Source: a virus. From it: a stretch of DNA of 64,000 nt. Under the pieces are notes generated by a model. It worked only from the letters and a program-made list of their open reading frames with translations, did not search any database and was not told the DNA's origin. Positions 46,082 to 64,000 of the stretch are shown piece after piece. A program made the position numbers and the translations under genes. Each line of letters begins with the position of its first letter. Within the stretch, counting starts at the first letter, position 1. The DNA lies in IMG/VR virus record IMGVR_UViG_3300025816_000008, positions 25,976 through 89,975 of that record; one strand, written 5' to 3'.

Positions 46082-48685
46082 TTGAATAATTTTTATACAT
46101 CTATCAATCGCCATAAAGGTGAAATTTTGTATCGTGGTTATACTGCTAATGGTACTCGGATTGAAAAACGTGAAAAGTTCGGTCCAACATTTTTTTTACC
46201 ATCAAAGGATCCATCTAAATACCGATCCCTTGATGGTAATTATTTAAACTCATATCAGTTTGATACAATGTATCAAGGTAAAGAATTTCTAGACACATAC
46301 AAAGATATGGAAGGCGTGAAAGTCTACGGAACTAGGAATTACGTTCATCAATATATTACTGATAACTTTCCAACTGATATAGAATTTAATCAGAAACATA
46401 TTAATATAGTTAATTTTGATATTGAAGTTGCATCAGATGATGGATTTCCTAGTCCGGATGTGGCATTACATCCAGTTATTTCAATAGCTTTAAAATCCAG
46501 TAAGTCATCTATATATCAAGTTTGGGGTTTAGACGAATACGATCCTGCTAAGACTGAACTAGATATGGCTGGCAATCATATCAAATATCATAAATGTAAT
46601 ACTGAAACTGAGTTATTAGTTTCGTTTATAAACTATTGGACTAAAAATTATCCAGACATCGTTACTGGATGGTATATCCGCCAATTTGATATTCCGTATT
46701 TAGTTAATAGAATCTGTAGACTTGCCGGAGAAATACCAGGTGAAGATGGCCAAATAAAATGTAAACCGGCTCGGAGACTTTCTCCGTGGAATAATGTCGG
46801 AACAGGTACATCTCGAGGTCAAAAAAGTGCGAAATATGGTTATGAGTTAGAAGGCATTCAAATTGCTGACTATATTGAATTATTTAAAAAGTTTGGTTAT
46901 TCTTACGGACCTCAAGAGTCTTATAAGCTAGATCATATTGCTTATACCGTACTAGGTGAAAACAAATTATCATATGAAGAGCATGGCAATCTTCACAACT
47001 TATACAAAGCAGACCATCAAAAATTTATTGATTATAATATTAAGGATGTTCAGCTTGTTGACCGCATCGATAGTAAGATGGGTCTTATTAACTTAGTTTT
47101 AACTATGGCCTATAAAGGTGGTGTTAATGTAAGTGATACTTTTGGCACTACGGCTATATGGGAATCAATTATCTATCGCCGCCTTCTTAAAAATGGTGTG
47201 ATACCACCAGTTGAACAGATTTCTCAATGTATGTACGGCTTAGTCGGTAATCCAGACAATCAAACCTATGACGCTAATGGTGCTAAACAAGCTCAGCGTA
47301 CAATTGCAGGTGGTTATGTAAAGTCGCCTCGACCAGGCGCTTATGATTGGGTAGTGTCTTTTGATTTAAATTCACTGTATCCAAATATTATTGTACAATC
47401 TAATATATCGCCTGAGACTATTATTAAAGACAAAACATGGGATCATTTTACTCAAGGTGTTAATCATTATTTAAATAATGATGATATTCAGACCGATGAT
47501 TATTCATTATGTGCTAGTGGCGTGCCATTCAGTAAAAAGAAGCAAGGTATTATTCCAGAGCTTATTGTTGAGTACTATGCAGAACGCAGTGTGATTAAAC
47601 AAAAAATGTTGAAAGTAAAACAAGAATATGAAGAAACAAAAAACAAATCTCTAGAGTCTGAAATCAATCAACTTGAAAATAATCAGATGGCTATTAAAAT
47701 CCTACTTAACTCATTATACGGTGCAATGGCAAATAAGTACTTTAAGTTCTTTGATAATGCTCTTGCAGAGAGCGTTACACTTACCGGTCAACTTTCTATT
47801 AAATGGGCTGAACGGGCTATTAACAATGAAATGAATAAGGTACTTAAAACTAAAGGAAAAGATTATGTTATTGCTATTGACACTGACTCAGTCTATATTA
47901 ATTTTGGTCCTCTTGTTGCTCAACTGGCGCCAGCAGATCCTGTTAAAGCATTGGACAAAATTTGTAAGACACACTTCGAGCCAATGATTGCATCTGCTTA
48001 TGATGAATTATTTCATAAGTTAAATGCGTACACTCCTCGCATGGAAATGGGTAGAGAAGTCATAGCAGATCGTGGTATCTGGACAGCAAAGAAAAGATAT
48101 ATTCTAAATGTGCACAATAATGAAGGTGTGCAATATGCTGAACCGAAACTTAAAATCATGGGTATTGAAGCTATCAAGTCTAGTACTCCTGAAGTCGTCC
48201 GTGATAAATTTAAAGAGATATTTAAGGTTATTATCAAAGGTAATGAATTAAGTACTCGTAAGTTTATAAATGATTTTAAACAAGAATTCAAATCGTTATC
48301 GGCAGAAAAAGTTTCGTTTCCGCGTGGTGTATCTGAACTTGACAAATGGAAAGATCGTCGAACTATCTATAAAAAAGGCACTCCCATACACGTTCGTGGA
48401 GCCTTATTATATAATAATCAAATTAAAGAAAAGTCTCTTGATAAAAAACATGATATGATTCAAAAAGGTGAAAAGATTAAATTTACTTATCTTAAAGTTC
48501 CGAATCCTATTAGGGAAAACGTCATTTCGTTTCCAGATTATTTGCCAGATTCGCTGCATCTAAACAAATATATAGATTATGACAAACAGTTTGAGAAAAC
48601 ATTCATCGAGCCACTTGAACCGATATTAGATGCAGTTGGGTGGTCAGTAAATGAGCAAGCAACATTAGAGGATTTCTTTGGATGA
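46082..48685 (+). CDS. g43: Family B DNA polymerase gp43
   Basis: FDIE exonuclease, [22 protein letters not shown] and KKRY motifs. Confidence 0.98.
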
Positions 48686-51714: not shown

Positions 51715-51715
51715 T
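51687..51715 (+). promoter_or_regulatory. Early-type promoter TTTACA-17-TATAAT
   Basis: Consensus with TG extension. Confidence 0.75.
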
Positions 51716-51740
51716 TACATATATAATGAAGGAGAATATA

Positions 51741-52154
51741 ATGAGCGATAACTGGGTTGACGACATTGAAGGTATGCACCATAAATTTGGTGTAGACGAA
51801 TGGTTTGAAAAAAATAAACACGATAAAGAACTCATGAAAAAATTTATTCAATTTCGTATGTTAATGATTTATGAAGAACTCGGCGAAACGATGTCAGCCA
51901 TAAATAATTCGGATAGCGAAGAAATTGTTGATGGTCTTATTGATTTGTGCGTATTTGCTATAGGCACATTAGATATATTTAAGGTTGATGCTAATGCAGC
52001 ATGGAATAAAGTCTTAAAAGCTAATATGGAAAAAGAGCCAGGAGTAAAACCAGGTCGACCAAATAGATTTGGTTTGCCAGATCTTCTTAAACCACACGGT
52101 TGGACACCACCAAATCATAGAGGTAATCATGGAAGTCTCCGCGACGTTCTTTAA
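51741..52154 (+). CDS. All-alpha (MazG/dUTPase-like) dNTP pyrophosphatase; candidate dCTPase
   Basis: EELGE...EEIVDGLID...V..ANM.K...DL.KP.GW motifs. Confidence 0.75.
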   Translation: MSDNWVDDIEGMHHKFGVDEWFEKNKHDKELMKKFIQFRMLMIYEELGETMSAINNSDSEEIVDGLIDLCVFAIGTLDIFKVDANAAWNKVLKANMEKEPGVKPGRPNRFGLPDLLKPHGWTPPNHRGNHGSLRDVL

Positions 52155-53064
52155 GTCTATATATGATAACAAAACTAATCGTAAAATAAAATTCAACAGC
52201 TTCTCTCAATTTGAGAAGCTGTTGTACAAACTATCAGAAATACCAAGAGGAGGCAAAAGCGATGCTGAACTTATATCACCGGCTAGTTATATTAATGATA
52301 CAACTCGGGCAAACAAAAATGTTTTGGATTGGTCAGGTTGGGCTGCTGTTGATGTTGATGATCATGAGTTTCAAGGAAACCTAGAGAATGAGTTACGTAA
52401 TCGTTTCGGCGGTCTTTCTTATGTTTGCTATAGTACTGCTAGTAGTTCCAATAGTCATCCAAAGTTTAGACTTGTCTTCCCGCTTAGTGAGCCAGTTGAA
52501 TCTATTAAAATCAAGCATTTCTGGTTCTCTCTCAATAAAGAACTCGGTGAAATCGGAGATGGACAGACTAAAGATTTATCTCGAATGTATTACATCCCTG
52601 CAGCGTATGCTGGGGCTAACAATTTTATATTCAGTAATATTGGTGCTAACATTGATCCTCACGAGTTAATGGCAAAACATGCTTACGCTGAAAAGCGAGG
52701 TTCGTCATTCATGGATAGATTATCTCCGGAAATGCAAACACAGATTATTGAACATCGTAAGACTAAGATGGAAAATACTAATGTAGTTTGGTCTGGATAT
52801 CGAGACTGTCCATTTGTTAACAAGAATCATATTAAGGAATGGTTTACTATATCTGGTACTGATAACTCAGGCCGATACGCTATGATATATAAAATTATGG
52901 TATCAACAGCATTAAGTGCTATTAAAAAACAATATCCGATATCAGCGTACGAGATAGAGCAATTAGTAAGAGAGCTTGATAATGAAACGACCCGTAAATA
53001 TGAAAAAAGACCACTTAATGTAGAAGCTGATAGGGCTATAGAATATGCATATAAAAACGCATAA
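52129..53064 (+). CDS. AEP/PrimPol-like protein
   Basis: AAVDVDD (DxD), YSTAS, KFRLVFPL, then D..R.YY.P, and a helical C-terminal domain. Confidence 0.6.
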   Translation: MEVSATFFKSIYDNKTNRKIKFNSFSQFEKLLYKLSEIPRGGKSDAELISPASYINDTTRANKNVLDWSGWAAVDVDDHEFQGNLENELRNRFGGLSYVCYSTASSSNSHPKFRLVFPLSEPVESIKIKHFWFSLNKELGEIGDGQTKDLSRMYYIPAAYAGANNFIFSNIGANIDPHELMAKHAYAEKRGSSFMDRLSPEMQTQIIEHRKTKMENTNVVWSGYRDCPFVNKNHIKEWFTISGTDNSGRYAMIYKIMVSTALSAIKKQYPISAYEIEQLVRELDNETTRKYEKRPLNVEADRAIEYAYKNA

Positions 53065-53072
53065 AGATGAAA

Positions 53073-53108
53073 TTAACTGTGTACATTGCCTTAAAACTGT
53101 GATAGTGT
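53073..53108 (+). promoter_or_regulatory. Early promoter TGTACA-17-TAGTGT
   Basis: 29-bp near-identical repeat of 34025-34053. Confidence 0.7.
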
Positions 53109-53131
53109 AGTATCATATAAAGGAGATACTT

Positions 53132-53320
53132 ATGAACTCATTCACTCAAACAATCGCTAATCAAATACCTATAGGTCTTGATCGTTACGGTCAAATCTTC
53201 GCTGCTAAGAAACTCATTCTTGCATCAGACTCTCCCCTTCTAGCTACATGCAGAGAGACTCTAGAAGAAATCGAAGAAATCATCTTTCAACGAGACAGAA
53301 AGGAATTGCCAAATGCATAA
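53132..53320 (+). CDS. Hypothetical early protein
   Basis: SD AAGGAG. Confidence 0.7.
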   Translation: MNSFTQTIANQIPIGLDRYGQIFAAKKLILASDSPLLATCRETLEEIEEIIFQRDRKELPNA

Positions 53321-53471
53321 AGCTGAAATTGAAAATCTAGTAAAAGACTATCTTAATAAAGGTGGTAAAATCGTTAAATGCCGTCCTGGATATGCTAAAA
53401 CTGAACCTCGGCGTTTTAAATATTCTGTTGCAAATCAAGGCCGTAAAACAGTAACTTTGAAAGGTTATTAA
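53313..53471 (+). CDS. 52-aa protein with SutA-like motif (not in ORF track)
   Basis: Hand translation: MHKAEIENLVKDYLNKGGKIVKCRPGYAKTEPRRFKYSVANQGRKTVTLKGY*. It exactly fills the gap between its neighbours. Confidence 0.65.
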   Translation: MHKAEIENLVKDYLNKGGKIVKCRPGYAKTEPRRFKYSVANQGRKTVTLKGY

Positions 53472-53843
53472 ATGAAAGATAAGTATTCAATTAGATTTCT
53501 GCAAAAGTGTGCAGAAGTACAAATCAAAAAAAGTAATGACTATCAAAATCCTAACTCTAGAGTAAAGCAGGCCGATTACTATCCTCGCGGCTGTGCTACT
53601 ATTCTTGATACAATGGCTGCGAAAGTCCTTCGTATGCAATCTGTTCTTGAAGCAATGGAAATGGATCCAACTTATCAACCGAACTTTGAGTCACTCGAAG
53701 ACTCTTGTGTTGATATTACTAATTATGCATCATTCTTTGCTGCTTATATGAATGGCGCCATTGATGGCCAGACAGGCGATCGTGATTTTCTAAATCGTCC
53801 TATAGCACCCAAAGGAAAACCAAATGAGATCGTTCAGTCTTAA
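53472..53843 (+). CDS. DUF1599/nucleotide-modification-associated domain-like protein
   Basis: KKSNDY...K..R...EDS..D..NY helical pattern. Confidence 0.55.
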   Translation: MKDKYSIRFLQKCAEVQIKKSNDYQNPNSRVKQADYYPRGCATILDTMAAKVLRMQSVLEAMEMDPTYQPNFESLEDSCVDITNYASFFAAYMNGAIDGQTGDRDFLNRPIAPKGKPNEIVQS

Positions 53844-54303
53844 AGATATAAATTTGATAGAACTCTTGGCCAAAGCAAAGGCTGAGAGTCAACTTATCTT
53901 TGATAAAGAGTCTACTCGTAAAGGTAGAACTCTTGATGATATTACTGTTACCAATATGTACGGTTTAGCAGCTGAACAGTTTCTTATTGAAAAATGTAAT
54001 TTCACTGATAATCCTTTACCATATCAGGATGTAATATCTCCAGAAGGTATTGATGTTGAAGTAAAAGTAACAAAAGTTTTTAATTATATTCCTAATGTAT
54101 TATATCGTTTAAAAGAAAAGCGTAAAAAGTATCCTAGTTTATATCAGCCTGATTGGGTTTTTATATATTTAAATGATAAAAAAACTCGTGATTATGTTTT
54201 TGCTGGTACATATAAATGGAATGGCAAAACATATGTTACTAAAGATTGGTCTTTAGAAATTGATAGAGAATTTCTTGCTAACTATGAAGGAGTAAACAAT
54301 TGA
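53824..54303 (+). CDS. Putative PD-(D/E)xK nuclease
   Basis: G.AAE...YQD(V)...VEVK pattern. Confidence 0.5.
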   Translation: MRSFSLKDINLIELLAKAKAESQLIFDKESTRKGRTLDDITVTNMYGLAAEQFLIEKCNFTDNPLPYQDVISPEGIDVEVKVTKVFNYIPNVLYRLKEKRKKYPSLYQPDWVFIYLNDKKTRDYVFAGTYKWNGKTYVTKDWSLEIDREFLANYEGVNN

Positions 54304-54659
54304 AAGCTGGTAAAGTCTGGGGAATGACTGAACTCATTGAAGCCAATGGTACTTTAGAATTTCATCGTATTGAAATGGAAGCTACGGGAGTATGCTCAAA
54401 ACATCTTCATGAATATAAATGGAATGGCTTTTATATCGAGTCAGGAATAATGCTCATCCGTGTATGGCAAAAAGATTACGATTTAATTGATGAAACTATT
54501 TTACAAGCAGGTGAATATACTAAAGTAAAACCAGGAGTTTATCATCAATTTGAATGTATTGAACCCGGTGTGGCCTTTGAGTTATATTGGGCTGAGTTTA
54601 ACCATAATGATATTATAAGAGAAACTGTAGGGAGATCGGACAATGAGAGAATTTATTAA
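54300..54659 (+). CDS. Cupin (sugar-phosphate isomerase-like)
   Basis: KVWG, SKHLH..K.N.FY..SG and PGVYHQF motifs; TTG start. Confidence 0.75.
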   Translation: MKAGKVWGMTELIEANGTLEFHRIEMEATGVCSKHLHEYKWNGFYIESGIMLIRVWQKDYDLIDETILQAGEYTKVKPGVYHQFECIEPGVAFELYWAEFNHNDIIRETVGRSDNERIY

Positions 54660-54948
54660 TGATGCTTGGAACAGTGTCATGGATGCAGATATTAATCCTT
54701 TAAGAAATATACCAAATCTTCAAGTTAGACATTTAATTATGCAAATACTTGCTTGGATGTGGGTATCTGTATGCTCTATGTACATAGGAAGCATTATGTT
54801 TTGGGGCGTTAACGCAATCGTTCATACATTGTTATTAGCAGCAATTGTGATTACAGTTGGTACATTTGATACCGCAAAGCGCAATCCTAAACTTTTCGAT
54901 AGAATTGATGGATATAATGGTCGTAGAAATAATGGAGAACACGACTAA
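54643..54948 (+). CDS. Small membrane protein
   Basis: Two hydrophobic helices. Confidence 0.7.
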   Translation: MREFINDAWNSVMDADINPLRNIPNLQVRHLIMQILAWMWVSVCSMYIGSIMFWGVNAIVHTLLLAAIVITVGTFDTAKRNPKLFDRIDGYNGRRNNGEHD

Positions 54949-55355
54949 TGAAAGTTGGATTTACTTGTAGTACTTTTGATTTACTTCATGCTGGACATGT
55001 ATCTATGCTCAGAGAAGCAAAGTCACAATGTGACTATTTGATCTGCGGTCTGCAAGTAAATCCTAATATTGATCGTAAGGAAAAGAATTCTCCGATACAA
55101 AATATTGTGGAAAGACAAGTACAGCTTTCTGCAATAAAATATGTTGATGAGATCATTATTTATTGTACAGAAGCCGATTTACTTGATATAATAAACATGT
55201 ATCCAATTAATGTTAGGATACTTGGTGAAGAGTATAGAAGCAAGGATTTTACTGGTAAAGATGAATGTCGCAACCGTGGAATTGATTTATACTTTAACAA
55301 ACGTGATCATCGCTTTTCAACAAGCGATCTAAGAAAGAGAGTATGTGAGCAATGA
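54948..55355 (+). CDS. Cytidylyltransferase (TagD/RfaE-like)
   Basis: TFDLLHAGH (HxGH), ER, YVDE and R....STS motifs. Confidence 0.88.
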   Translation: MKVGFTCSTFDLLHAGHVSMLREAKSQCDYLICGLQVNPNIDRKEKNSPIQNIVERQVQLSAIKYVDEIIIYCTEADLLDIINMYPINVRILGEEYRSKDFTGKDECRNRGIDLYFNKRDHRFSTSDLRKRVCEQ

Positions 55356-56041
55356 AAATGAATTCTGTAAAAGATGTTCGTCAATTCTTTGTTGATGAAT
55401 TAAATGATGAAGCATTCACTATTGATAAAACCGGAGCACGAACTATTGAGATGATCGGCGCATCATTTATTGCTGATGAACCATCTATATTCGGTAAACC
55501 GTCTCTTTCATATATTCAAAAAGAATTAGATTGGTATGATAACCAGTCGACTAATATCTTTGATATTAATAAAGAGTCTGGTGAAGATGCGCCTGCGGCT
55601 TGGAAATATGCTGCTAATACGCATGGTGAAATTAATTCAAACTATGGTCATCTGATTTATGCTAATAAATATTTTGATCAATATCAAAATGCATTGTCTG
55701 AACTAGACAAAAATCCCGATGGTAGGCGTGCTTCTATGATCTATAATCGGCCTTCTATTTGGGTGGAGTTTGACGAAAATGGAAAATCTGATTTCATTTG
55801 TACTAACGCTGTCACTTACTATATTCGTGATAATTTACTTCATTGTGTAGTCCAAATGCGGTCTAATGATGTAGTATTTGGCTATAAGAATGATTATGCT
55901 TGGCAACGACATGTACAAAATAAACTAGTAGAAGATTTAAATAATATCTATAGAGTTAAAGATCCGGTTAGTGCTGGTATGATGATCTGGCAGGTACAAA
56001 ATCTTCACGTATATGAAAGGCATTTTAATCTTGTCACATAA
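55352..56041 (+). CDS. g42: dCMP hydroxymethylase gp42-like (thymidylate synthase fold)
   Basis: SDFICTN (catalytic Cys), MRSNDVVFGYKNDYAWQ and NLHVYERHF. It has Asp at the base-specificity position where dUMP enzymes have Asn. A separate thyX is present. Confidence 0.88.
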   Translation: MKMNSVKDVRQFFVDELNDEAFTIDKTGARTIEMIGASFIADEPSIFGKPSLSYIQKELDWYDNQSTNIFDINKESGEDAPAAWKYAANTHGEINSNYGHLIYANKYFDQYQNALSELDKNPDGRRASMIYNRPSIWVEFDENGKSDFICTNAVTYYIRDNLLHCVVQMRSNDVVFGYKNDYAWQRHVQNKLVEDLNNIYRVKDPVSAGMMIWQVQNLHVYERHFNLVT

Positions 56042-56492
56042 TACTAATCGTCAACACAAATGGGATCTAAGATATTTAGAGCTGGCTAAAACTATTGCTG
56101 GATGGTCTAAGGATCCTTCAAGTCAGATTGGAGCTATTGCTGTAGGTTCAAAAGGACAAGTCTTAGCTCAGGGATATAATGGATTTCCTCGAGGAATGCT
56201 TGATAGTCCTAACTTATATAGTAACCGAGAAGAGAAATATGTCAGAATTGTTCATGCTGAAATGAACATGATTTATAATGCATCTTTTAATGGTGTGTGT
56301 TTAAATAAATCAACTGTTTACGTATCAGGTCTTCCTACTTGTTCTGATTGTGCAAAAGGACTTATTCAAGTAGGAGTTGCTGAACTAGTCATGCCACGAC
56401 AAAAGATTGATGAAAAATGGCATGACTCATGGCAAAGATCTAAGTCATATTACAAAGAAGCTGGTCTAAAATATAGGTGGGTAACAATATGA
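56013..56492 (+). CDS. cd: dCMP deaminase (likely TTG start at 56031)
   Basis: SKDPS, GYNG, HAEMN and PTCSDC motifs. Confidence 0.92.
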   Translation: MKGILILSHNTNRQHKWDLRYLELAKTIAGWSKDPSSQIGAIAVGSKGQVLAQGYNGFPRGMLDSPNLYSNREEKYVRIVHAEMNMIYNASFNGVCLNKSTVYVSGLPTCSDCAKGLIQVGVAELVMPRQKIDEKWHDSWQRSKSYYKEAGLKYRWVTI

Positions 56493-57460
56493 AAGTCATA
56501 ACGAATCCAATTAGCAATATTCCAGTAAATGCTAAGTCACATACTCTTGGTTGGTCACAGTTATGGCGCGATCAGCTTGACGCTTATATAGATAATAAGT
56601 GTACACCTAATGTTAGAAAAGCTAATACTGTTTATATTGATCATGGAGCTAACTTTGGAGGAACGTTAAATCTATTTGGCGGCGCCAATAAAGAAGTTTA
56701 TGATAAGTTGAATATAATTGCATCATGTAAAGATGTGGTCTCACTTGATTGGGACATGCCTGATTATGGAGCTATGTTAAAAAAAAGACTAAGCGCTAAG
56801 ACTACATACGAAGGAATCACTGAAGACTGGTGTGATTTACTATCCAGAAGGTTTAAAAATGTTAAATCACTTAAACAAGAAGAATTGGAATTAAATGATG
56901 CCATTATTGGAGACAGTCATACTTTGTCTTTTAGTGATAGTCGCGATATGGTTTTGCGTCATGACGGCAAGACTCTTTTTGGCTGTCTTAGGACCGGCCT
57001 TGGAAGTCTTACTCGGGGCATTAATACTGATAATTTCAATCGTATTACTTTCTGTTTGGGTTCAATAGATATTCGTCATCATCTACTTCGGCATCCTTTA
57101 GACATCGATTCTTTAATTAATTCTTATTACGAACAAGCTATGAAATATAGCAGTGATTCAACTGATGTTTGGTTTACTGCTCCAGTACCGGTAGAATTTG
57201 AGGGTCGACGCATTCCTAAATCTGGATTCTTTAAAAAAGAACCGTTTTACGGTAGCTGTGAACAGCGTAGAGATGTTACAGATATGTTTATAGCAGCTTT
57301 GTACAAACGAACTAGCAATGTTATACAACCACCAGCTGATTGGTATAACATGGATCCTCAAAAATATGCTGAAACTTATATGGAGCATGGTAGTAGTTTT
57401 CATATAGCTCCACCATTTTATAAAAGAAATAACTGGGGAGCATCAGTTTTTGCCACATAA
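56489..57460 (+). CDS. Putative DNA-modifying enzyme: beta-glucosyltransferase-like N-domain + SGNH-fold domain
   Basis: N-terminal LNLFGG...SLDWD; C-terminal IIGDSH, GKTLFG, LGSID and SFHI (SGNH blocks I, II, III, V). Confidence 0.5.
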   Translation: MKVITNPISNIPVNAKSHTLGWSQLWRDQLDAYIDNKCTPNVRKANTVYIDHGANFGGTLNLFGGANKEVYDKLNIIASCKDVVSLDWDMPDYGAMLKKRLSAKTTYEGITEDWCDLLSRRFKNVKSLKQEELELNDAIIGDSHTLSFSDSRDMVLRHDGKTLFGCLRTGLGSLTRGINTDNFNRITFCLGSIDIRHHLLRHPLDIDSLINSYYEQAMKYSSDSTDVWFTAPVPVEFEGRRIPKSGFFKKEPFYGSCEQRRDVTDMFIAALYKRTSNVIQPPADWYNMDPQKYAETYMEHGSSFHIAPPFYKRNNWGASVFAT

Positions 57461-58349
57461 TAATCACGTAATTGACTTAATCAATAAAGATTATCCTTTC
57501 CCTTGGAGTAGTCCTGAGGAAACTAAGGATTATTATTTAGAATTAGCAAAGGATTGGGAAGATCCTTATGGCCCTCCTGTAATTAAAGTACATGAGGGCA
57601 TTCGTGTTGTTAGAGACGATTACTTAGTTGGTAGTAAGGTTCGAGGTGGTGACTGTCTTATATCTTCTTTACCAGAAAATATAGACACCGTTGTTTATGT
57701 TCAACCAAGAACTGGTTTAGCCGGAGTAAGTATACTCGATGTAGCAAAAAGACATAATCTAAAAGTTAAACTTTTTATGCCTTCATCAAAAAAAATATCA
57801 CCACATCAGGCTTGTTGCATTGAACGTGGAGCGATAGTAGAATTTCATAGAATTGCTGCTATGCCTAATTTAAATGCCATTGCAAAGAAGTGGTCTGATG
57901 CACGATCTAATTGTTTCTTTGTTCCACTCGGATTAAAGCATGAATTGGTTACAGCTGGCATCGTTAAAGTTGCATCAAAAATTGATCCACCTGATGAGGT
58001 TTATACTGCCACGTCCACGGGCGTGCTCACACGGGGGCTTCAAATTGCTTGGCCAAATGCTAAATTTACATCAGTTTGTGTGTCAAGAAATATGAAAGCC
58101 GGAGAGCTTGGTATTGCTGAGGCAATATCCGAGCCGTTAGCATTTACAGCATCTGAGAAAAAAGATAAGCTTCCGCCATTTCCTAATATAGATACTTATG
58201 ATGGTAAAGCTTGGAAGTATATCCCAAAGAATTCAGATAAAGATATTTTATTTTGGAATGTAGGTGCAGAGCCAATATTGAATCGTTGGGCTATTATTGA
58301 TGAAACAAATTCTTATAGGAAGTGGCCAAAAGATGAGCTGGTTAAATGA
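57450..58349 (+). CDS. PLP-dependent enzyme, fold type II (TrpB/cysteine synthase-like)
   Basis: VVRDD..GSK(V)R Schiff-base Lys, STG.L.RG phosphate loop and LFWNVG; TTG start. Confidence 0.75.
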   Translation: MPHNNHVIDLINKDYPFPWSSPEETKDYYLELAKDWEDPYGPPVIKVHEGIRVVRDDYLVGSKVRGGDCLISSLPENIDTVVYVQPRTGLAGVSILDVAKRHNLKVKLFMPSSKKISPHQACCIERGAIVEFHRIAAMPNLNAIAKKWSDARSNCFFVPLGLKHELVTAGIVKVASKIDPPDEVYTATSTGVLTRGLQIAWPNAKFTSVCVSRNMKAGELGIAEAISEPLAFTASEKKDKLPPFPNIDTYDGKAWKYIPKNSDKDILFWNVGAEPILNRWAIIDETNSYRKWPKDELVK

Positions 58350-59352
58350 AGAAGCCCTAGACATTTTTGTCAACTATTATTATCCAAAAGCAAAGTGGCT
58401 TCAAAATAATGTTAATTGGGGTCCATTAGATTATGAAGGTCCAGAGGCAGCAAAAGCCATTGACGATCCTTTAATGCAAAAGATTGACATATACGACTGC
58501 TTTACTCGTAATGCAGCAGGATTTTCTAATGTACTTCAGGATCTTAGATTTGGATCTAAAACTCCAAAATGGAGATGGCAAAATAAAACACGTAGAGAAT
58601 TAAATACTAAAAATGATTCTATTAAATGGGACACTAAAACTTGGATGTATGTATTTTTAAGCCACCGCGTTACTGGTTCCGGCGCTTCATTTGAGAATGA
58701 TCATGGATATAGAAATAATATTATTCAGTTTTGGGGAAAGCATCGTGATATTAAAGACATGTCTGAGGACCTAGTTAGCGCTAAAGCTACTGGCAAACCT
58801 CTTTTTACATCAATCGGAAATCAACCACCTGCTCCAAAAAAGGGAGTATCTAATGTTGATTTTCTTGTTAAAGAGCTTCCAGACGTCATAGATAGATTAG
58901 GTGACTGGATTGTAAAAAGCAAAAGAGGTCATAAAGAAATTGTAGACTTTCTAAATGTTTATAACAAATCTGCCGGACACAGGAAATTTAATTTTCAATA
59001 TGCTGCCTTCTCAATGGATTGTTCTGATTATTTTCCAGAATATGCTGATGTTGATAGCCATACATACTTAGGTAATAACGCTATTCGGTGTATGAAAAAA
59101 CTGTCTGGTGGGTGGAAGCCGGATAGTTTTATGGATTTATTGAGAGAACAAACCGGCGGAAAACCAAAAGATTTAGAAGATGTAATGTGCGACTTTGTCA
59201 GGTTTGGGCAAAATTATGTTCCTAGAGGAAATGGAACCTTCGATCATATACCATCAACGTTAGCAAATAATTCGGGGTGGAATTCTGGCTGGGAACAGCG
59301 GCAGGGTACACCACCTCAAAAAGGTATACAATTAGAGGATTTTATGGTATAA
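58333..59352 (+). CDS. aGPT-Pplase/5-hmdU DNA kinase helical-domain-like DNA base-modifying protein
   Basis: DDPLMQ....D...R, F....D...Y.P, LGNNA and DLEDVMCDFVRF resemble the family pattern (DPIL..N..R / G.GA / E..LCE..K). Confidence 0.5.
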   Translation: MSWLNEEALDIFVNYYYPKAKWLQNNVNWGPLDYEGPEAAKAIDDPLMQKIDIYDCFTRNAAGFSNVLQDLRFGSKTPKWRWQNKTRRELNTKNDSIKWDTKTWMYVFLSHRVTGSGASFENDHGYRNNIIQFWGKHRDIKDMSEDLVSAKATGKPLFTSIGNQPPAPKKGVSNVDFLVKELPDVIDRLGDWIVKSKRGHKEIVDFLNVYNKSAGHRKFNFQYAAFSMDCSDYFPEYADVDSHTYLGNNAIRCMKKLSGGWKPDSFMDLLREQTGGKPKDLEDVMCDFVRFGQNYVPRGNGTFDHIPSTLANNSGWNSGWEQRQGTPPQKGIQLEDFMV

Positions 59353-60173
59353 TGGCTAAAAAATTAAAAATATCCGTGATCGGTTGTGGTTTTGTAGGCA
59401 CAGCTGTTATTAATGGTTTTGATAAAAAATTATGTGATATTGCACCAATTGACATTAAGTATAATACCACAGTGTCAGATACTGATCCATTTTGTGATGT
59501 ATTTTTTGTGTGTTTACCTACACCAAGCGAGGATGATGGATCAGTTAACGCTGCACTTGTAATTGAAACTGTTAAATGGTTAAAGCTTAATAGAGCTGGA
59601 CACATCGTAATAAAATCAACCGTCACACCTGATATTATAGATAAACTTTCTGGTGATAGAGTAGTTTATAATCCTGAATTTTTAACTGAAAAATCTGCAG
59701 ATGAAGATTTCATTAATTCGGCAATGCATATATTTGGAGGGCATATTAAAGATACAAACAATATTGAAAAAATATATAAAAAATATAGTAAATGTAAACC
59801 TTGCCCATGCCACCATGTGACATTAAAAGAAGCAAGTTTTATTAAATACGGAGTTAATTGTTTTCTTGCCACAAAAGTATTATGGTTTAATCAATTCTAT
59901 AATATAATACAAAAACACGATTGTAATTTTGATGAGATTACTTATGCAATGAGATCAGATCCAAGGATTGGTAACTCTCATACGAGTGTTCCAGGATTTG
60001 ATGGCAAAATGGGTTTTGGTGGAGCTTGTTTTCCAAAAGATACTTCAGCATTTTTAGATTTTGCAATATCATTTTCAGTCCTAAATGAGGTAATACAAGC
60101 AAATAATAAGATTAGATCTGAATATACGAAAGATAAAAGAGAGCTTGAGCAAAATGTCTCTTTTAGTAAATAA
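59352..60173 (+). CDS. UDP-glucose/GDP-mannose 6-dehydrogenase family, lacking the C-terminal domain
   Basis: GCGFVG, IKSTV, YNPEFL, KY..N.FLA.K and GFGGACFPKD motifs. Confidence 0.88.
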   Translation: MAKKLKISVIGCGFVGTAVINGFDKKLCDIAPIDIKYNTTVSDTDPFCDVFFVCLPTPSEDDGSVNAALVIETVKWLKLNRAGHIVIKSTVTPDIIDKLSGDRVVYNPEFLTEKSADEDFINSAMHIFGGHIKDTNNIEKIYKKYSKCKPCPCHHVTLKEASFIKYGVNCFLATKVLWFNQFYNIIQKHDCNFDEITYAMRSDPRIGNSHTSVPGFDGKMGFGGACFPKDTSAFLDFAISFSVLNEVIQANNKIRSEYTKDKRELEQNVSFSK

Positions 60174-60176
60174 CTA

Positions 60177-60205
60177 TTTACATTACTTTCTTTCTATGTT
60201 ATAAT
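60177..60205 (+). promoter_or_regulatory. Early-type promoter TTTACA-17-TATAAT for uvsX
   Basis: Consensus match. Confidence 0.8.
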
Positions 60206-60230
60206 AGTCCAATAATCAAAGGAGATATAA

Positions 60231-61283
60231 ATGTCGATTATGGATAAACTTAAAAAGAATTCAAAGCTTAAGGCCACTGAAGTTCTTTCTGAGTCTAAAT
60301 TTTTTAATGAAAAAGATATGATTTCAACTAGCGTACCAATGGTAAACGTTGCGCTATCTGGATCTATGGATGGTGGAATGACACCTGGACTAACGGTTTT
60401 GGCTGGTCCATCTAAACACTTCAAAACATCGTTTGCGCTTCTTATGGCAAGTGCTTATCTTAAATCTAAAAAGACGCAGGTAATGCTATTTTATGATTCA
60501 GAGTTTGGTTCACCTCAAGCGTACTTTGAGCAATTTGATATTGATACATCACGTGTTCTTCATACTCCAATTACAAATGTAGAAGAGCTTAAATTTGATA
60601 TGATTGCTCAGCTTGAAGGTCTAGAGTCTAAAGATGATGTCATTATTGTTATTGACTCTATTGGTAATCTTGCTTCGAAGAAAGAATTAGATGATGCTCA
60701 GAATGAAAAGTCTGTTGCTGATATGTCGAGAGCTAAAGCACTTAAAGGTTTATTTCGTATGGCAACACCCTATCTTGCTATGAAAAATATCGTAATGCTT
60801 GCAGTTAATCATACATATCAAGAGATTGGTTTATTTCCTAAAGCAGTAGTATCGGGTGGCACTGGGATTTATTATAGTGCTAATAATATTTGGATCCTTG
60901 GCCGCCGCCAAAATAAAAAAGGCACGGAAATTACTGGTTATGACTTTGTTATTAATATCGAGAAATCACGATTTGTAAAAGAAAAGTCTAAGATCCCTAT
61001 CTCAGTTTCATGGGAAGGTGGCGTAGAAGAATATTCTGGTTTACTAGAAGTAGCAATGGCGGGTGGCTATGTTGTTAAGCCGTCTAATGGTTGGTATTCT
61101 TCTGTCGATATGTCCACTGGTGAAGTGTCTGAAAAGAAAGTTCGTGAAGCAGGTACTCTTGAGAAAGAATTCTGGGATCCAATCTTTACTAATACAGATT
61201 TTAAAGACTTTATAAAAAAGCAATTTACTATTGGTTACAAATCTGATATAGATATGGATGAGATCTTAGAAATGGAGGCGTAA
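60231..61283 (+). CDS. uvsX: RecA-like recombinase UvsX
   Basis: AGPSKHFKT, YDSEFG, IDSIGNLAS and EKSR motifs. Confidence 0.97.
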   Translation: MSIMDKLKKNSKLKATEVLSESKFFNEKDMISTSVPMVNVALSGSMDGGMTPGLTVLAGPSKHFKTSFALLMASAYLKSKKTQVMLFYDSEFGSPQAYFEQFDIDTSRVLHTPITNVEELKFDMIAQLEGLESKDDVIIVIDSIGNLASKKELDDAQNEKSVADMSRAKALKGLFRMATPYLAMKNIVMLAVNHTYQEIGLFPKAVVSGGTGIYYSANNIWILGRRQNKKGTEITGYDFVINIEKSRFVKEKSKIPISVSWEGGVEEYSGLLEVAMAGGYVVKPSNGWYSSVDMSTGEVSEKKVREAGTLEKEFWDPIFTNTDFKDFIKKQFTIGYKSDIDMDEILEMEA

Positions 61284-61576
61284 TGCAGTACATTGAAAAT
61301 AAAGATTATGAATTTATTCCAGGAAATAATGATGATTGGCAAATTAGATTTTTAACCGGAGATTTTATAGAAAGTGTTATACAATATGGTACTATTCGTA
61401 TGGAAGATGGTGAACAGATGACGTTTGACTTTCATGTAGAAAATAGTCCAGATGAAACATTAAATTCAGAAAATGAAGAATTACAAAAACATGCTGGTGA
61501 TATTTTGATTTCTATTATTGAAGATGCTATTGAAAATAAAGCAAGTGATTTACACATTAATGAGGTAAAAGAGTGA
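61283..61576 (+). CDS. gp40-like protein (by position)
   Basis: Lies between uvsX and g41 as in T4; acidic, 97 aa. Confidence 0.45.
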   Translation: MQYIENKDYEFIPGNNDDWQIRFLTGDFIESVIQYGTIRMEDGEQMTFDFHVENSPDETLNSENEELQKHAGDILISIIEDAIENKASDLHINEVKE

Positions 61577-63466: not shown

Positions 63467-63663
63467 TGAAAATTGAAATTAGTGATGACGAAGCATTTGC
63501 GCTAGTTCATAGGACTCTTATGCAAATCGAAGAAGATATGCCTCAAAGTAAAAAACTAACAAAAGCTATCAAACGAATTAATCATAATATTATGATCCCA
63601 ACAGATTGGGAAGAAATGTACGAAGAAGATTTTGTTGAATATGATACTGGAGAATATAAGTAA
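63466..63663 (+). CDS. Hypothetical protein
   Basis: Coupled ORF. Confidence 0.6.
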   Translation: MKIEISDDEAFALVHRTLMQIEEDMPQSKKLTKAIKRINHNIMIPTDWEEMYEEDFVEYDTGEYK

Positions 63664-64000
63664 TGAAAGCCAAATTGATAGGATACACACAAGTTTATGA
63701 TATGCCAGAAATTGGTGATGTTCAAGATCTTATTGCTTTTTGTGCAAGAGTGTCAAATCCTACAAATCAAATTAATAGTGCAACCAGCGAAAAGCTTATT
63801 AAATACCTAATTAAGCATAAGCACTGGTCTCCTCTTGAAATGGCTTCAGCCACTATGGAAATTGAAACTACTCGAGACATTGCTAGACAGCTTTTAAGAC
63901 ATAGATCATTTTCATTCCAAGAATTTAGCCAAAGGTATGCTAATCCAAGTGATATGGATGAAACCTTTGTTTTATCAGAAGCAAGATTACAAGATCATAA
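63663..64000 (+). CDS. thyX: Flavin-dependent thymidylate synthase ThyX (partial, runs off window)
   Basis: Hand translation: MKAKLIGYT...AFCARVSNP...HWSPLEM...RDIARQLLRHRSFSFQEFSQRYA, which carries the RHRx7S motif. Confidence 0.93.
   Translation, partial: MKAKLIGYTQVYDMPEIGDVQDLIAFCARVSNPTNQINSATSEKLIKYLIKHKHWSPLEMASATMEIETTRDIARQLLRHRSFSFQEFSQRYANPSDMDETFVLSEARLQDH

What the first reader, a model, noticed from the sequence alone, without database searches (positions are those of the whole stretch)
54948..60173. Candidate new cytosine-hypermodification pathway at the T4 g42/beta-gt locus
Seen: a translationally coupled run of cytidylyltransferase, gp42-like enzyme, dCMP deaminase, SGNH-containing protein, PLP enzyme, aGPT-Pplase-like protein and UDP-sugar dehydrogenase, lying between g43 and uvsX. 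The TS-fold enzyme has the dCMP-type Asp (GYKNDYAWQ), and dTMP synthesis is covered by a separate thyX. Known: in T4 this interval holds g42 and beta-gt. PLP enzymes and aGPT-Pplase-family proteins are known from THYMIDINE (5-hmdU) hypermodification in ViI/M6-type phages. Inference: this phage pairs a hydroxymethyl-cytosine precursor with hmU-style hypermodification enzymes and has no intact glucosyltransferase here. That suggests an undescribed modified cytosine (phospho-, amino-acid-, acyl- or sugar-acid-decorated) for defence evasion.
Basis: partly seen in the sequence, partly recalled or inferred. Interest (0 to 1): 0.92.

Follow-up and report, generated by a model that had tools for sequence, protein, structure and literature searches.

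The report
Hydroxymethylcytosine hypermodification cassette, marine T4-like phage
A widespread but uncultured marine T4-like phage makes T4's hydroxymethylcytosine, and where T4 keeps its glucose-adding enzyme it carries three conserved enzymes (an esterase-fold protein, a distant relative of amino-acid:DNA transferases, and a relative of a vitamin-B6 decarboxylase) that most likely turn that base into a DNA modification nobody has described.

Summary
A tightly overlapping + strand gene run lies between g43 (46082-48682) and uvsX (60231-61283).

The conserved core is four genes:
- a T4-type dCMP hydroxymethylase;
- ORF4, a two-domain protein with an SGNH fold;
- a PLP enzyme in the same PHROG as the DNA-base decarboxylase M6 gp52;
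- ORF6, a helical protein whose best solved-structure match is the amino-acid:DNA transferase PaMx11 gp46.

These four stay together in at least three gene orders across about 70 viral contigs. ORF4 and ORF6 also occur fused into one protein.

No 5-hmdU DNA kinase, glucosyltransferase or T4-type dNMP kinase was found, so this is a kinase-less variant aimed at cytosine.

The cytidylyltransferase, cupin and UGDH-like genes sit in only 9 of 37 loci and are accessory. An all-alpha NTP pyrophosphatase upstream (36 of 37 loci) is a likely dCTPase stand-in.

The ORF4 family also accompanies hydroxymethylase-type TS homologues in phages that lack ORF6 and PLP. These include the cultured Aeromonas phages 44RR2.8t, 31 and 25, which gives a bench system.

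The product is unknown and the chemistry is inferred. This scan has noted the same cassette before on other DNA. No paper in the searchable library describes it.

The parts
51726..52154 (+). All-alpha NTP pyrophosphohydrolase (PRA-PH/MazG-like). Candidate stand-in for the T4 gp56 dCTPase.
   Evidence: PF01503 E=5.3e-8, above cut-off; phrog_671 E=2.4e-22. It lies upstream of gp42 in 36 of 37 loci, including loci where the cassette has moved behind gp41. It is absent from the g43-uvsX interval of C48C1. The best promoter-like site is at 51687-51715. The dCTPase role is inferred.
53472..53843 (+). Small conserved ORF upstream of gp42, function unknown.
   Evidence: phrog_18404 and phrog_1485, E about 1e-8. 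Present in 27 of 37 loci.
54300..54659 (+). Cupin (accessory, sub-lineage only).
   Evidence: Cupin_2 E=9e-6; WbuC-like E=2.4e-4. Present in 9 of 37 loci.
54643..54948 (+). Small hydrophobic protein (accessory or unknown).
   Evidence: No family hit. The hydrophobic stretch is visible in the translation. Its position varies in relatives.
54948..55355 (+). Cytidylyl/adenylyltransferase-like protein (accessory).
   Evidence: PF01467 E=1.4e-11. RfaE domain II and glycerol-3-P cytidylyltransferase models score below their cut-offs. Present in 9 of 37 loci.
55352..56041 (+). T4 gp42-type dCMP hydroxymethylase (5hm-dCMP synthase).
   Evidence: 50% identity to T4 gp42, E=4e-79. Signature residues Glu60, Asp145, Cys148, Asp171 and Asp179 are all present. 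The controls behave as expected: M6 gp58 has Asn179 and RB69 gp48 has Asn171.
56013..56492 (+). dCMP deaminase.
   Evidence: PF00383 E=2.4e-15; phrog_174 E=3e-34. HAE and PCxxC zinc motifs are in the translation. In some relatives it is relocated behind gp41.
56489..57460 (+). ORF4: N-terminal alpha/beta domain plus C-terminal SGNH-fold domain. Proposed to act on the hmC hydroxymethyl group, taking the place of the kinase.
   Evidence: AF2 model pLDDT 84.3. Residues 133-322 match SGNH/GDSL esterases and acyltransferases at Z 9-10; the top 40 hits are all SGNH. GDSH, G(N/S)ID and His309 are invariant. It is fused to ORF6 in 7 representative proteins. The whole length is homologous to the N-terminus of the 795-aa Aeromonas phage 44RR2.8t ORF233c. 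The ORF listing start is the GTG at 56477; the ATG at 56489 fits the N-termini of homologues better.
57450..58349 (+). Fold-type-II PLP enzyme, relative of the M6 gp52 / ViI gp226 DNA-base amino-acid decarboxylases.
   Evidence: phrog_7093 E=1.4e-32. M6 gp52 hits the same PHROG at 2e-159. hhalign against M6 gp52 gives probability 92%, E=5e-7, with Lys63 aligned on Lys36 in SK[VI]RG. A homologous domain is fused to an N6/N4 DNA methylase in Erythrobacter phage R6L gp1.
58333..59352 (+). ORF6: divergent member of the AADT / aGPT-Pplase (HhH-glycosylase-fold) superfamily. Proposed group transferase acting at C5 of hmC in DNA.
   Evidence: AF2 model pLDDT 85.8. BFVD hit to an AADT-domain protein: E=3.6e-13, TM 0.79. 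The top of 48,161 PDB representatives is the PaMx11 gp46 glycinyltransferase 8z2m (Z 8.6), and the next 12 hits are all HhH glycosylase-type. Glu282, Cys286 and Asp287 are >=90% conserved over 71 relatives. The only hhalign-aligned stretch with ADDT puts Glu282/Cys286 on M6 gp51 Glu243/Cys247. There is no Pfam ADDT match.
59352..60173 (+). Short NDP-sugar dehydrogenase-like protein (accessory or backbone).
   Evidence: PF03721 and PF00984 only; the C-terminal UDP-binding domain is missing. The GGACFPKD catalytic-Cys motif is present. Present in a minority of module-bearing loci, and also in C48C1, which lacks gp42.
60231..61283 (+). uvsX recombinase (right-hand landmark).
   Evidence: PF21134 and RecA; phrog_97 E=9e-85. 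A promoter-like site lies at 60177-60205.
46082..48682 (+). gp43 DNA polymerase (left-hand landmark).
   Evidence: tblastn with T4 gp43, E=7e-118.
63663..64000 (+). thyX, cut by the window end. A separate route to dTMP.
   Evidence: PF02511 E=9.9e-25, above cut-off.

Best explanation
The window carries a DNA hypermodification pathway aimed at cytosine.

Shown by homology: the gp42-type enzyme makes 5-hydroxymethyl-dCMP.

Inferred steps:
1. The upstream all-alpha NTP pyrophosphatase and the dCMP deaminase shape the nucleotide pool.
2. 5hmC is incorporated during replication.
3. ORF4 and ORF6 then work on the DNA as one unit; they are a single fused protein in other viruses. ORF6 is a helical protein with the HhH-glycosylase / AADT fold. 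It holds the flipped base and uses its conserved Cys286/Glu282 to create an electrophilic C5 exocyclic methylene, as AADTs do on phosphorylated hmU.
4. ORF4, through its SGNH Ser147/His309 site, does the job that the ATP-dependent 5-hmdU DNA kinase does in thymidine systems. It either turns the hydroxyl into a leaving group (for example an ester) or delivers an acyl or aminoacyl donor.
5. The PLP enzyme decarboxylates, or otherwise trims, the attached amino acid.

There is no radical-SAM isomerase, so the ViI-like route (O-linked serine, then decarboxylation) is the closest analogy. It predicts a 5-(2-aminoethoxy)methyl-cytosine-like base, with a nucleoside mass near 300 Da. The purpose would be protection from host nucleases.

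The cytidylyltransferase, cupin and UGDH-like genes are lineage-specific extras.
For: gp42 identity and all five signature residues are present, and the dUMP and 5-hydroxy controls behave as expected (rules from PMC13326640).

The four-gene core is kept together in three gene orders and two genome positions: 55 or more loci and 15 more divergent loci.

There are Rosetta-stone ORF4::ORF6 fusions: 7 cluster representatives of 639-790 aa, with each half scoring E<=1e-21. Fused loci L094-L096 appear.

PLP enzyme: same PHROG as M6 gp52, the Lys aligns, and hhalign gives 92%. The biochemistry of gp52 is in PMC8989533.

ORF6: fold and motif. The essential Cys/Glu of AADTs is described in PMC8989533.

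ORF4: SGNH fold with invariant catalytic residues.

ORF4-family genes travel with TS homologues of the dCMP-hydroxymethylase signature even without ORF6 or PLP. They also sit near an HMUDK_hel-type helical protein (L101). The gt-less gp42 phages 44RR2.8t, 31 and 25 carry one (PMC2993671).

The PLP domain is fused to a DNA methylase in another phage.

No glucosyltransferase family was found.
Against: No product has been measured, so every step after gp42 is inference.

ORF6 fails the Pfam ADDT and HMUDK_hel models. Only 1 of 71 relatives gives a borderline ADDT hit. Profile-profile probability against ADDT is 0.5%, and the structural Z of 8.6 is middling for a helical protein.

No T4 gp1-type dNMP kinase, thymidylate kinase or gp56-type dCTPase was found in this contig or in related contigs that are 77-86% complete. 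How hm-dCMP reaches the triphosphate is therefore unexplained.

An SGNH enzyme that activates a DNA base has no precedent.

The SGNH block-V Asp is replaced by Ser.

Many ORF4 homologues (52 of 80 loci) have no ORF6 or PLP within 8 kb, so ORF4 does not depend on them.
Confidence: 0.6

Rival explanations
1. The final modified base is a thymine analogue, not a cytosine. The adjacent dCMP deaminase would convert hm-dCMP to hm-dUMP. 5hmU would then enter DNA and be hypermodified by the AADT-like and PLP enzymes, as in ViI and M6.
For: The dCMP deaminase overlaps the gp42 gene in this window and in many relatives. The nearest characterised relatives of the PLP enzyme and ORF6 all act on hmU derivatives.
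Against: T4 itself has both cd and gene 42 and makes hmC. In about 20 loci the deaminase sits behind gp41, away from the cassette. thyX supplies ordinary dTMP. Known hmU phages use an Asn-type dUMP hydroxymethylase directly (M6 gp58). ORF6 is far from hmU-acting AADTs in sequence, which fits a changed substrate. No 5-HMUDK was found.
Confidence: 0.1
2. The decoration is not derived from an amino acid. ORF4 alone would be the hmC-modifying enzyme, for example by O-acylation, or by transfer of a sugar, polyol or phospho group supplied by the nucleotide-sugar-type genes. ORF6 would be only its DNA-binding partner, and the PLP enzyme would make or trim the donor.
For: ORF4 occurs with hydroxymethylase-type TS genes without ORF6 or PLP. 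In L101 it sits beside an inositol-1-phosphate-synthase-like gene and an HMUDK_hel protein. This window adds cytidylyltransferase-, cupin- and UGDH-like genes. SGNH enzymes are esterases or acyltransferases.
Against: The nucleotide-sugar-type genes are in only 9 of 37 loci. ORF6 keeps the Glu/Cys pair that is catalytic in AADTs across relatives down to 20% identity. The PLP enzyme groups with a decarboxylase that acts on base-linked amino acids. No glycosyltransferase family was found.
Confidence: 0.15
3. The DNA carries only plain hmC, or ordinary C. ORF4, the PLP enzyme and ORF6 would then work on a small molecule or RNA, for instance a hydroxymethyl-pyrimidine metabolite as in the MilA-type nucleoside antibiotic pathways, or they would have an unrelated role.
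For: No dNMP kinase or gp56-type dCTPase was found. All assignments after gp42 are remote. TS-fold CMP hydroxymethylases exist in secondary metabolism (MilA, cited in PMC13326640).
Against: The cassette sits in the replication gene block, in T4's gp42/beta-gt slot. The enzyme is 50% identical to T4 gp42. ORF6 has a DNA-glycosylase-type fold. PLP-domain relatives are fused to a DNA methylase. The set is conserved in lytic T4-like phages over wide divergence.
Confidence: 0.1

Closest known systems
Salmonella phage ViI pathway to 5-(2-aminoethoxy)methyl-dU (dUMP hydroxymethylase, 5-HMUDK gp67/gp243, AADT gp247, PLP decarboxylase gp226; PMC8989533)
   Same: A TS-fold hydroxymethylase supplies a 5-hydroxymethyl pyrimidine. 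Both have a helical AADT-fold protein with a conserved Glu/Cys pair and a fold-type-II PLP enzyme of the gp52/gp226 kind. Neither has a radical-SAM step.
   Different: Here the base is cytosine (Asp instead of Asn at the specificity position). There is no P-loop DNA kinase. A two-domain SGNH-fold protein, often fused to the helical protein, takes its place. ORF6 does not match Pfam ADDT.
Pseudomonas phages M6 and PaMx11 (5-HMUDK, glycine:DNA transferase gp51/gp46, PLP gp52 plus rSAM gp53, or FAD lyase plus acetyltransferase)
   Same: The PLP enzyme shares PHROG 7093 with M6 gp52, and the Lys aligns. The top solved-structure match of ORF6 is PaMx11 gp46 (8z2m).
   Different: The window has no kinase, rSAM, FAD lyase or GNAT acetyltransferase. 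Sequence similarity of ORF6 to gp51 is limited to the E-x-V-x-C motif.
T4 gp42 / gp56 / gp1 / alpha- and beta-glucosyltransferase system (glucosyl-hmC)
   Same: Same hydroxymethylase (50% identity) and the same genome slot between g43 and uvsX. A dCMP deaminase is present.
   Different: No glucosyltransferase, no gp1-type kinase and no gp56-type dCTPase were found. A PRA-PH/MazG-like pyrophosphatase travels with the cassette instead.
RB69 / DLP3 arabinosyl-5-hydroxycytosine system (5ho-dCMP synthase, NDP-arabinose genes, arabinosyltransferases; PMC13326640)
   Same: A TS homologue with Asp at the N177 position sits in the g43-uvsX interval of a T4-like phage, with sugar-nucleotide-type genes nearby.
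   Different: The diagnostic D169N change is absent here, and identity to RB69 gp48 is 25%. No glycosyltransferases were found, and the partners are the AADT-like and PLP enzymes.
Aeromonas phages 44RR2.8t, 31 and 25 (gene 42 and gene 56 present, no gt genes; PMC2993671)
   Same: They encode a hydroxymethylase-type gp42 and a full-length ORF4 homologue.
   Different: There, ORF4 is the N-terminus of a 795-aa protein. Its C-terminus gives only a weak HMUDK_hel hit. No PLP or ORF6 homologue was detected.

Membership tests
T4-type dCMP hydroxymethylase (gp42) | Thymidylate-synthase fold with the catalytic Cys (T4 Cys148) and Glu60 | tested here: met
   PF00303 E=1e-13; 50% identity to T4 gp42; Cys and Glu align.
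T4-type dCMP hydroxymethylase (gp42) | Asp at the E. coli ThyA N177 position (dCMP rather than dUMP) | tested here: met
   KNDYAW aligns with T4 RNDYAW (Asp179). The dUMP enzyme M6 gp58 shows Asn in the same column.
T4-type dCMP hydroxymethylase (gp42) | Acidic residue at the ThyA L143 position (hydration to hydroxymethyl) | tested here: met
   Asp in SDFICTN aligns with T4 Asp145. The rule is from PMC13326640.
5-hydroxy-dCMP synthase (RB69 gp48 / DLP3 gp80 type) | Asn at the ThyA D169 position (D169N) | tested here: not met
   The window and all sampled relatives have MRSND (Asp). RB69 gp48 has MRSQN.
Amino acid:DNA transferase (Pfam PF18724 ADDT, formerly aGPT-Pplase2) | Match to the family profile | tested here: not met
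   No hit at E<=10 for ORF6. No hit in the six-frame search of the contig at E<=1. 1 of 71 relatives scores E=1e-3. hhalign against an ADDT alignment gives probability 0.5%.
Amino acid:DNA transferase (Pfam PF18724 ADDT, formerly aGPT-Pplase2) | HhH-glycosylase-like helical fold resembling a solved AADT | tested here: met
   8z2m (PaMx11 gp46) ranks first of 48,161 chains: Z 8.6, rmsd 4.0, 203 residues aligned. The next 12 hits are all HhH glycosylase-type. BFVD AADT-domain model: E=3.6e-13, TM 0.79. Z is middling for a helical protein.
Amino acid:DNA transferase (Pfam PF18724 ADDT, formerly aGPT-Pplase2) | Essential Cys with a neighbouring essential Glu | tested here: inconclusive
   E282-D-V-M-C286 matches M6 gp51 E243-T-V-L-C247. 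Both residues are >=90% conserved in 71 relatives. The aligned stretch is short (E=0.13), and no superposition at residue level was available.
Thymidine hypermodification system (5-HMUDK + AADT) | P-loop 5-hmdU DNA kinase (PF18748) that phosphorylates the hydroxymethyl group | tested here: not met
   No match at E<=1 in this contig or in five related contigs up to 86% complete. The contigs are incomplete.
M6 gp52 / ViI gp226 PLP-dependent decarboxylases of base-linked amino acids | Membership of the same protein family, with the Schiff-base Lys conserved | tested here: met
   phrog_7093 E=1.4e-32, against 2e-159 for M6 gp52. hhalign 92%, with Lys63 on Lys36. Lys63 is invariant in 19 relatives. 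Pfam PALP is below its cut-off (20.1 against 35 bits).
M6 gp52 / ViI gp226 PLP-dependent decarboxylases of base-linked amino acids | Decarboxylation of an amino acid attached to a DNA base | not testable with these tools
   Needs enzymology.
SGNH/GDSL hydrolase-acyltransferase superfamily (ORF4 C-terminal domain) | SGNH fold with block I GDS(x) Ser, block III G-x-N/S-D and block V His | tested here: met
   Z 9-10 over residues 133-322; the top 40 hits are all SGNH. GDSH, G(N/S)ID and His309 are invariant. The block V Asp is Ser, so the site may be a dyad rather than a triad. No Pfam Lipase_GDSL hit.
T4 beta-glucosyltransferase (idea that the ORF4 N-terminal domain is a beta-gt acceptor domain) | Sequence-profile similarity to T4 beta-gt / PF09198 | tested here: not met
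   hhalign probability 1.6%, with only a 13-residue NxFGG stretch aligned. PF09198 finds nothing in the contig at E<=1. The fold of the N-terminal domain alone could not be searched.

The most novel reading that the evidence does not exclude
ORF4 plus an AADT-fold helical protein, found separate, fused or neighbouring, would be a previously unrecognised two-part DNA-base transferase. It would derivatise 5hmC without ATP-dependent phosphorylation, using SGNH Ser/His ester chemistry. On this reading the ORF4 family is the general hmC-modifying enzyme of gp42 phages that lack glucosyltransferases, including Aeromonas phages 44RR2.8t, 31 and 25 and jumbo-size marine phages. With ORF6 and the PLP enzyme it would build an amino-acid-derived, probably cationic, cytosine in a globally distributed marine phage group.
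Probability: 0.3. Interest if true: 0.9.

Novelty: new variant of a known kind. Interest (0 to 1): 0.8.

Why it matters
All non-sugar pyrimidine hypermodifications worked out so far sit on thymine, and known cytosine hypermodifications are sugars on 5hmC or 5hoC. This cassette predicts an amino-acid-type or acyl-type cytosine.

It occurs in phages whose near-identical DNA turns up in marine metagenomes of more than ten studies between 2014 and 2024. If the prediction holds, three things follow:
- A new DNA base, and a new kinase-free way to activate 5hmC. That would interest people who build hmC-labelling and sequencing chemistry.
- An explanation of how gt-less gp42 phages protect their DNA. 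Petrov et al. raised this question in 2010.
- Possible bias in the recovery of such phages in viromes and in restriction- or CRISPR-based assays.

The Aeromonas phages with an ORF4 fusion make part of it testable now.

Tried and rejected
- Megablast of the region, and tblastn of ORF6, against 50,697 phage records gave no match. No cultured phage in that collection carries ORF6.
- HMM searches of PDB sequences with the ORF6 and ORF4 profiles found nothing meaningful.
- Foldseek of ORF6 against PDB gave only weak AGOG hits, E about 0.6.
- hhalign of the ORF6 alignment against single M6 gp51 gave probability 0.1%. Against 44RR ORF233c it gave 1.5%.
- The ORF6 profile found nothing in the 44RR2.8t genome. 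The C-terminal half of ORF233c is therefore linked to this superfamily only by a sub-threshold HMUDK_hel hit.
- hhalign of ORF4 against T4 beta-gt gave 1.6%.
- ESM Atlas on ORF4 residues 1-135 gave no usable hit.
- T4 gp56, gp1 and beta-gt by tblastn or HMM, and Pfam DNMK, Thymidylate_kin, AGT and T4-Gluco-transf, all gave no match in this contig or in the related contigs G001 and G002. All of these contigs are incomplete.
- The search for related loci with the single fused protein P0150 found nothing.
- Contigs from three marine metatranscriptome libraries cover most of 51000-61500. RNA libraries can hold DNA and contigs give no strand or level, so I do not count this as proof of expression.
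No ORF4-ORF6 complex test was run.
- The paper that first defined aGPT-Pplases (Iyer et al. 2013) is not held.
- Searches for hydroxymethylcytosine + SGNH + phage and for pelagimyophage + hydroxymethylase found no paper holding those terms together. The other searches turned up no paper that describes this cassette.

Full report
WHAT IS THERE

The window is the 3' 64 kb of a 90-kb IMG/VR viral contig, estimated about 53% complete. Its nearest cultured relative is the marine Kyanoviridae phage C48C1, with uvsX 76% identical.

From 54300 to 60173 the + strand holds ten overlapping or abutting ORFs.
- a cytidylyltransferase-like protein;
- a thymidylate-synthase-fold protein;
- a dCMP deaminase;
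- two ORFs with no Pfam hit (ORF4 and ORF6);
- a weak PALP protein;
- a nucleotide-sugar dehydrogenase lacking its C-terminal domain;
- then uvsX.

g43 lies at 46082-48682. thyX is cut by the window's end. The two strongest promoter-like sites in 51000-61500 sit in front of the pyrophosphatase gene at 51726 and in front of uvsX, although the total number of such sites is not above chance.

THE HYDROXYMETHYLASE

The TS-fold protein is 50% identical to T4 gp42 over 224 residues.

A 2026 paper showed that some gp42 homologues (RB69 gp48, DLP3 gp80) are flavin-dependent 5-hydroxy-dCMP synthases. The diagnostic residue is Asn at the ThyA D169 position. Asp at the N177 position selects dCMP, and an acidic residue at the L143 position goes with hydroxymethylation (PMC13326640).

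In my alignment the window protein, T4 gp42 and every sampled relative have Asp at all three positions. RB69 gp48 shows Asn at the D169 position. The dUMP hydroxymethylase M6 gp58 shows Asn at the N177 position. The enzyme is therefore of the 5hm-dCMP type.

THE PLP ENZYME

ORF5 hits phrog_7093 at E=1.4e-32. M6 gp52 is the enzyme shown biochemically to decarboxylate glycine attached to thymine in DNA (PMC8989533), and it hits the same PHROG at 2e-159.

Profile alignment of 19 ORF5 relatives against gp52 gives 92% probability. It places the invariant Lys63 of ORF5 (SKVRG) on gp52 Lys36 (SKIRG), the proposed Schiff-base lysine.

The only tblastn hits in cultured phages are domains fused to an N6/N4 DNA methylase in Erythrobacter and Microcystis phages. 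That is a second link to DNA.

ORF6

ORF6 has hundreds of metagenomic relatives and no Pfam, PHROG or cultured-phage match.

Its AlphaFold model (pLDDT 85.8) matches viral models named 'Amino acid:DNA transferase domain-containing protein' at E=3.6e-13 and TM 0.79. Weaker matches go to aGPT-Pplase1 and 5-hmdU DNA kinase helical-domain proteins.

In an all-against-all comparison with 48,161 PDB representatives, the top chain is the 5-phosphomethyl-dU glycinyltransferase gp46 of phage PaMx11 (8z2m, Z 8.6). It ties with archaeal AGOG glycosylases, and the next hits are all HhH-type glycosylases or the queuine salvage enzyme.

By sequence the link is thin:
- Pfam ADDT and HMUDK_hel find nothing in the contig.
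- One of 71 relatives gives a borderline ADDT hit.
- hhalign against an ADDT alignment reports 0.5% probability.

Even so, the single stretch hhalign aligns puts ORF6 E282-D-V-M-C286 on M6 gp51 E243-T-V-L-C247. Both residues are invariant in the ADDT alignment and at least 90% conserved among 71 ORF6 relatives down to 20% identity. The Cys and the neighbouring Glu are the residues whose mutation kills M6 gp51 and ViI gp247.

I therefore file ORF6 as a distant member of the superfamily, not as a member of Pfam ADDT.

ORF4

The model (pLDDT 84.3) has an N-terminal alpha/beta domain and a C-terminal domain, residues 133-322. The C-terminal domain matches SGNH/GDSL esterases and acyltransferases at Z 9-10, and the top 40 hits are all of that superfamily. 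GDSH, G(N/S)ID and His309 are invariant across very divergent relatives.

Profile comparison does not support that. I could not fold the domain alone.

CONSERVATION AND LINKAGE

Among 80 IMG/VR loci found with ORF6, the four genes gp42, ORF4, PLP and ORF6 are together wherever the contig reaches far enough. They occur in the order gp42-(dCD)-ORF4-PLP-ORF6 or gp42-ORF6-PLP-ORF4. They usually sit beside uvsX, but in five loci they sit behind gp41.

A profile search of 1.84 billion cluster representatives found seven proteins of 639-790 aa that contain a full ORF4 followed by a full ORF6.

A second set of 80 loci was found with these fusions. Fifteen of them are divergent loci ordered ORF4-ORF6-PLP-gp42, and three of those are fused. 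Gene fusion plus retention through three rearrangements is strong evidence that the four act together.

By contrast, the cytidylyltransferase, cupin and UGDH-like genes occur in 9 of 37 loci with enough upstream sequence. A UGDH-like gene also flanks uvsX in C48C1, which has no gp42.

An all-alpha NTP pyrophosphatase (PF01503, phrog_671; window 51726-52154) precedes gp42 in 36 of 37 loci. It moves with the cassette when the cassette relocates, and it is missing from the C48C1 interval. It is a reasonable stand-in for the gp56 dCTPase, but that role is inference.

A WIDER PATTERN AROUND ORF4

Fifty-two of the 80 loci of the second set carry a stand-alone ORF4 with no gp42, PLP or ORF6 within 8 kb, and 12 carry gp42 with ORF4 only.

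In four of five large contigs of the stand-alone type (145-236 kb), a TS homologue with the full dCMP-hydroxymethylase signature lies elsewhere. No PLP or ORF6 homologue was detected in them.

In locus L101 the gene order is: hydroxymethylase, DUF6378, dUTPase-like, ORF4, inositol-1-phosphate-synthase-like, a small ORF, a 487-aa protein with an above-threshold HMUDK_hel domain, then DNA polymerase.

The Aeromonas phages 44RR2.8t, 31 and 25 have long been noted for having genes 42 and 56 but no glucosyltransferase (PMC2993671). They encode a 795-aa protein whose first 334 residues are a full ORF4 homologue (hhalign 100%). Its tail gives a sub-threshold HMUDK_hel hit, and their gp42 has the hydroxymethylase signature.

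ORF4 thus looks like the commonest partner of dCMP hydroxymethylases in phages without glucosyltransferases. It is repeatedly paired with a helical protein of the aGPT-Pplase superfamily.

WHAT IS MISSING

I found none of the following in this contig or in related contigs that are 77-86% complete:
- 5-hmdU DNA kinase;
- T4 gp1-type dNMP kinase;
- thymidylate kinase;
- gp56-type dCTPase;
- alpha- or beta-glucosyltransferase.

All of these contigs are fragments. Even so, the repeated absence of a DNA kinase inside an otherwise complete cassette suggests the pathway really is kinase-less. The route from hm-dCMP to the triphosphate is unexplained.

MECHANISM

Shown by homology: synthesis of 5hm-dCMP. 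Everything after that is inferred.

In outline, 5hmC is incorporated into DNA. ORF6 flips the base and attacks C6 with Cys286 to form an exocyclic methylene. ORF4 supplies what the kinase supplies in thymidine systems, either a leaving group on the hydroxyl or an activated donor, through its Ser/His site. A nucleophile, most simply an amino acid, adds to the methylene, and the PLP enzyme decarboxylates it.

Because no radical-SAM isomerase is present, an O-linked serine route as in ViI is the closest analogy. It predicts an aminoethoxymethyl-cytosine-like product. I put about 0.6 on 'post-replicative hypermodification of 5hmC by these three proteins', and much less on the exact product.

Three rivals remain: a thymine product by deamination of hm-dCMP, a decoration not derived from an amino acid and made mainly by ORF4, and a function that does not involve DNA.

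NOVELTY AND CONTEXT

The papers I could search tie AADTs to thymidine hypermodification, and tie cytosine hypermodification to sugars. None of them mentions this cassette or an SGNH partner.

Earlier agents of this scan reached the same reading on other contigs, so this window is another instance. The additions made here are:
- the D169 test against the 2026 literature;
- the PaMx11 gp46 structure match;
- the PLP lysine alignment;
- the ORF4::ORF6 fusions;
- the wider ORF4-hydroxymethylase association, including cultured Aeromonas phages;
- the travelling pyrophosphatase;
- the demotion of the nucleotide-sugar-type genes to accessories.

Near-identical DNA occurs in marine metagenomes of more than ten studies. 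Contigs from three metatranscriptome libraries also cover the region, but I do not count that as proof of expression.

Noticed in passing
window 48682-49914, 49907-51001, 50977-51714: Directly after g43 come three metabolic genes. The first is a 410-aa PEP carboxykinase (PF01293 E=3.9e-91). The second is a full SAM synthetase metK (TIGR01034 E=7.7e-126, above cut-off). The third is a HAD-IIB hydrolase (phrog_29277). PEPCK and HAD appear in only 2 of 37 related loci.
   Followed up: partly
window 52129-53064: An AEP/primase-like protein (phrog_9765 E=4.5e-51, no Pfam hit) is conserved between the pyrophosphatase and gp42 in 33 of 37 loci. It is also present in C48C1, where it is annotated 'DNA primase'.
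   Followed up: partly
L087 (Erythrobacter phage vB_EliS_R6L gp1, KY006853.1): An 807-aa 'DNA modification methylase' combines an N6_N4 methylase domain with a PALP domain about 32% identical to the window's PLP enzyme. A PAPS-reductase-like gene lies nearby. This may be another uncharacterised DNA modification enzyme.
   Followed up: partly
L101:5225-14717: A different hmC-type cluster: hydroxymethylase-signature TS, DUF6378, dUTPase/dCTP-deaminase-like, ORF4 homologue, myo-inositol-1-phosphate-synthase-like, and a 487-aa HMUDK_hel protein, next to a family-B DNA polymerase. It suggests another donor chemistry.
   Followed up: partly
L086:4995-7382 (Aeromonas phage 44RR2.8t ORF233c): A 795-aa protein made of a full ORF4 homologue plus about 460 uncharacterised residues (weak HMUDK_hel hit at 679-762). 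It lies beside a sodium:solute symporter gene, in a phage with gp42 and gp56 but no glucosyltransferases.
   Followed up: partly
window 59352-60173 and L002:10082-11041 (C48C1): The UGDH-like proteins of these phages keep the NAD-binding and central domains and the catalytic Cys motif, but lack the C-terminal UDP-binding domain. In C48C1 the gene is paired with an NDP-sugar epimerase and a DNA methyltransferase instead of the gp42 cassette.
   Followed up: no
window 56477-57460 relatives: ORF4 comes in two sequence types, about 60% and about 33-36% identical to the window's copy. PLP and ORF6 stay above 60% identical in the same loci. ORF4 is therefore evolving faster, or has been exchanged.
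   Followed up: no
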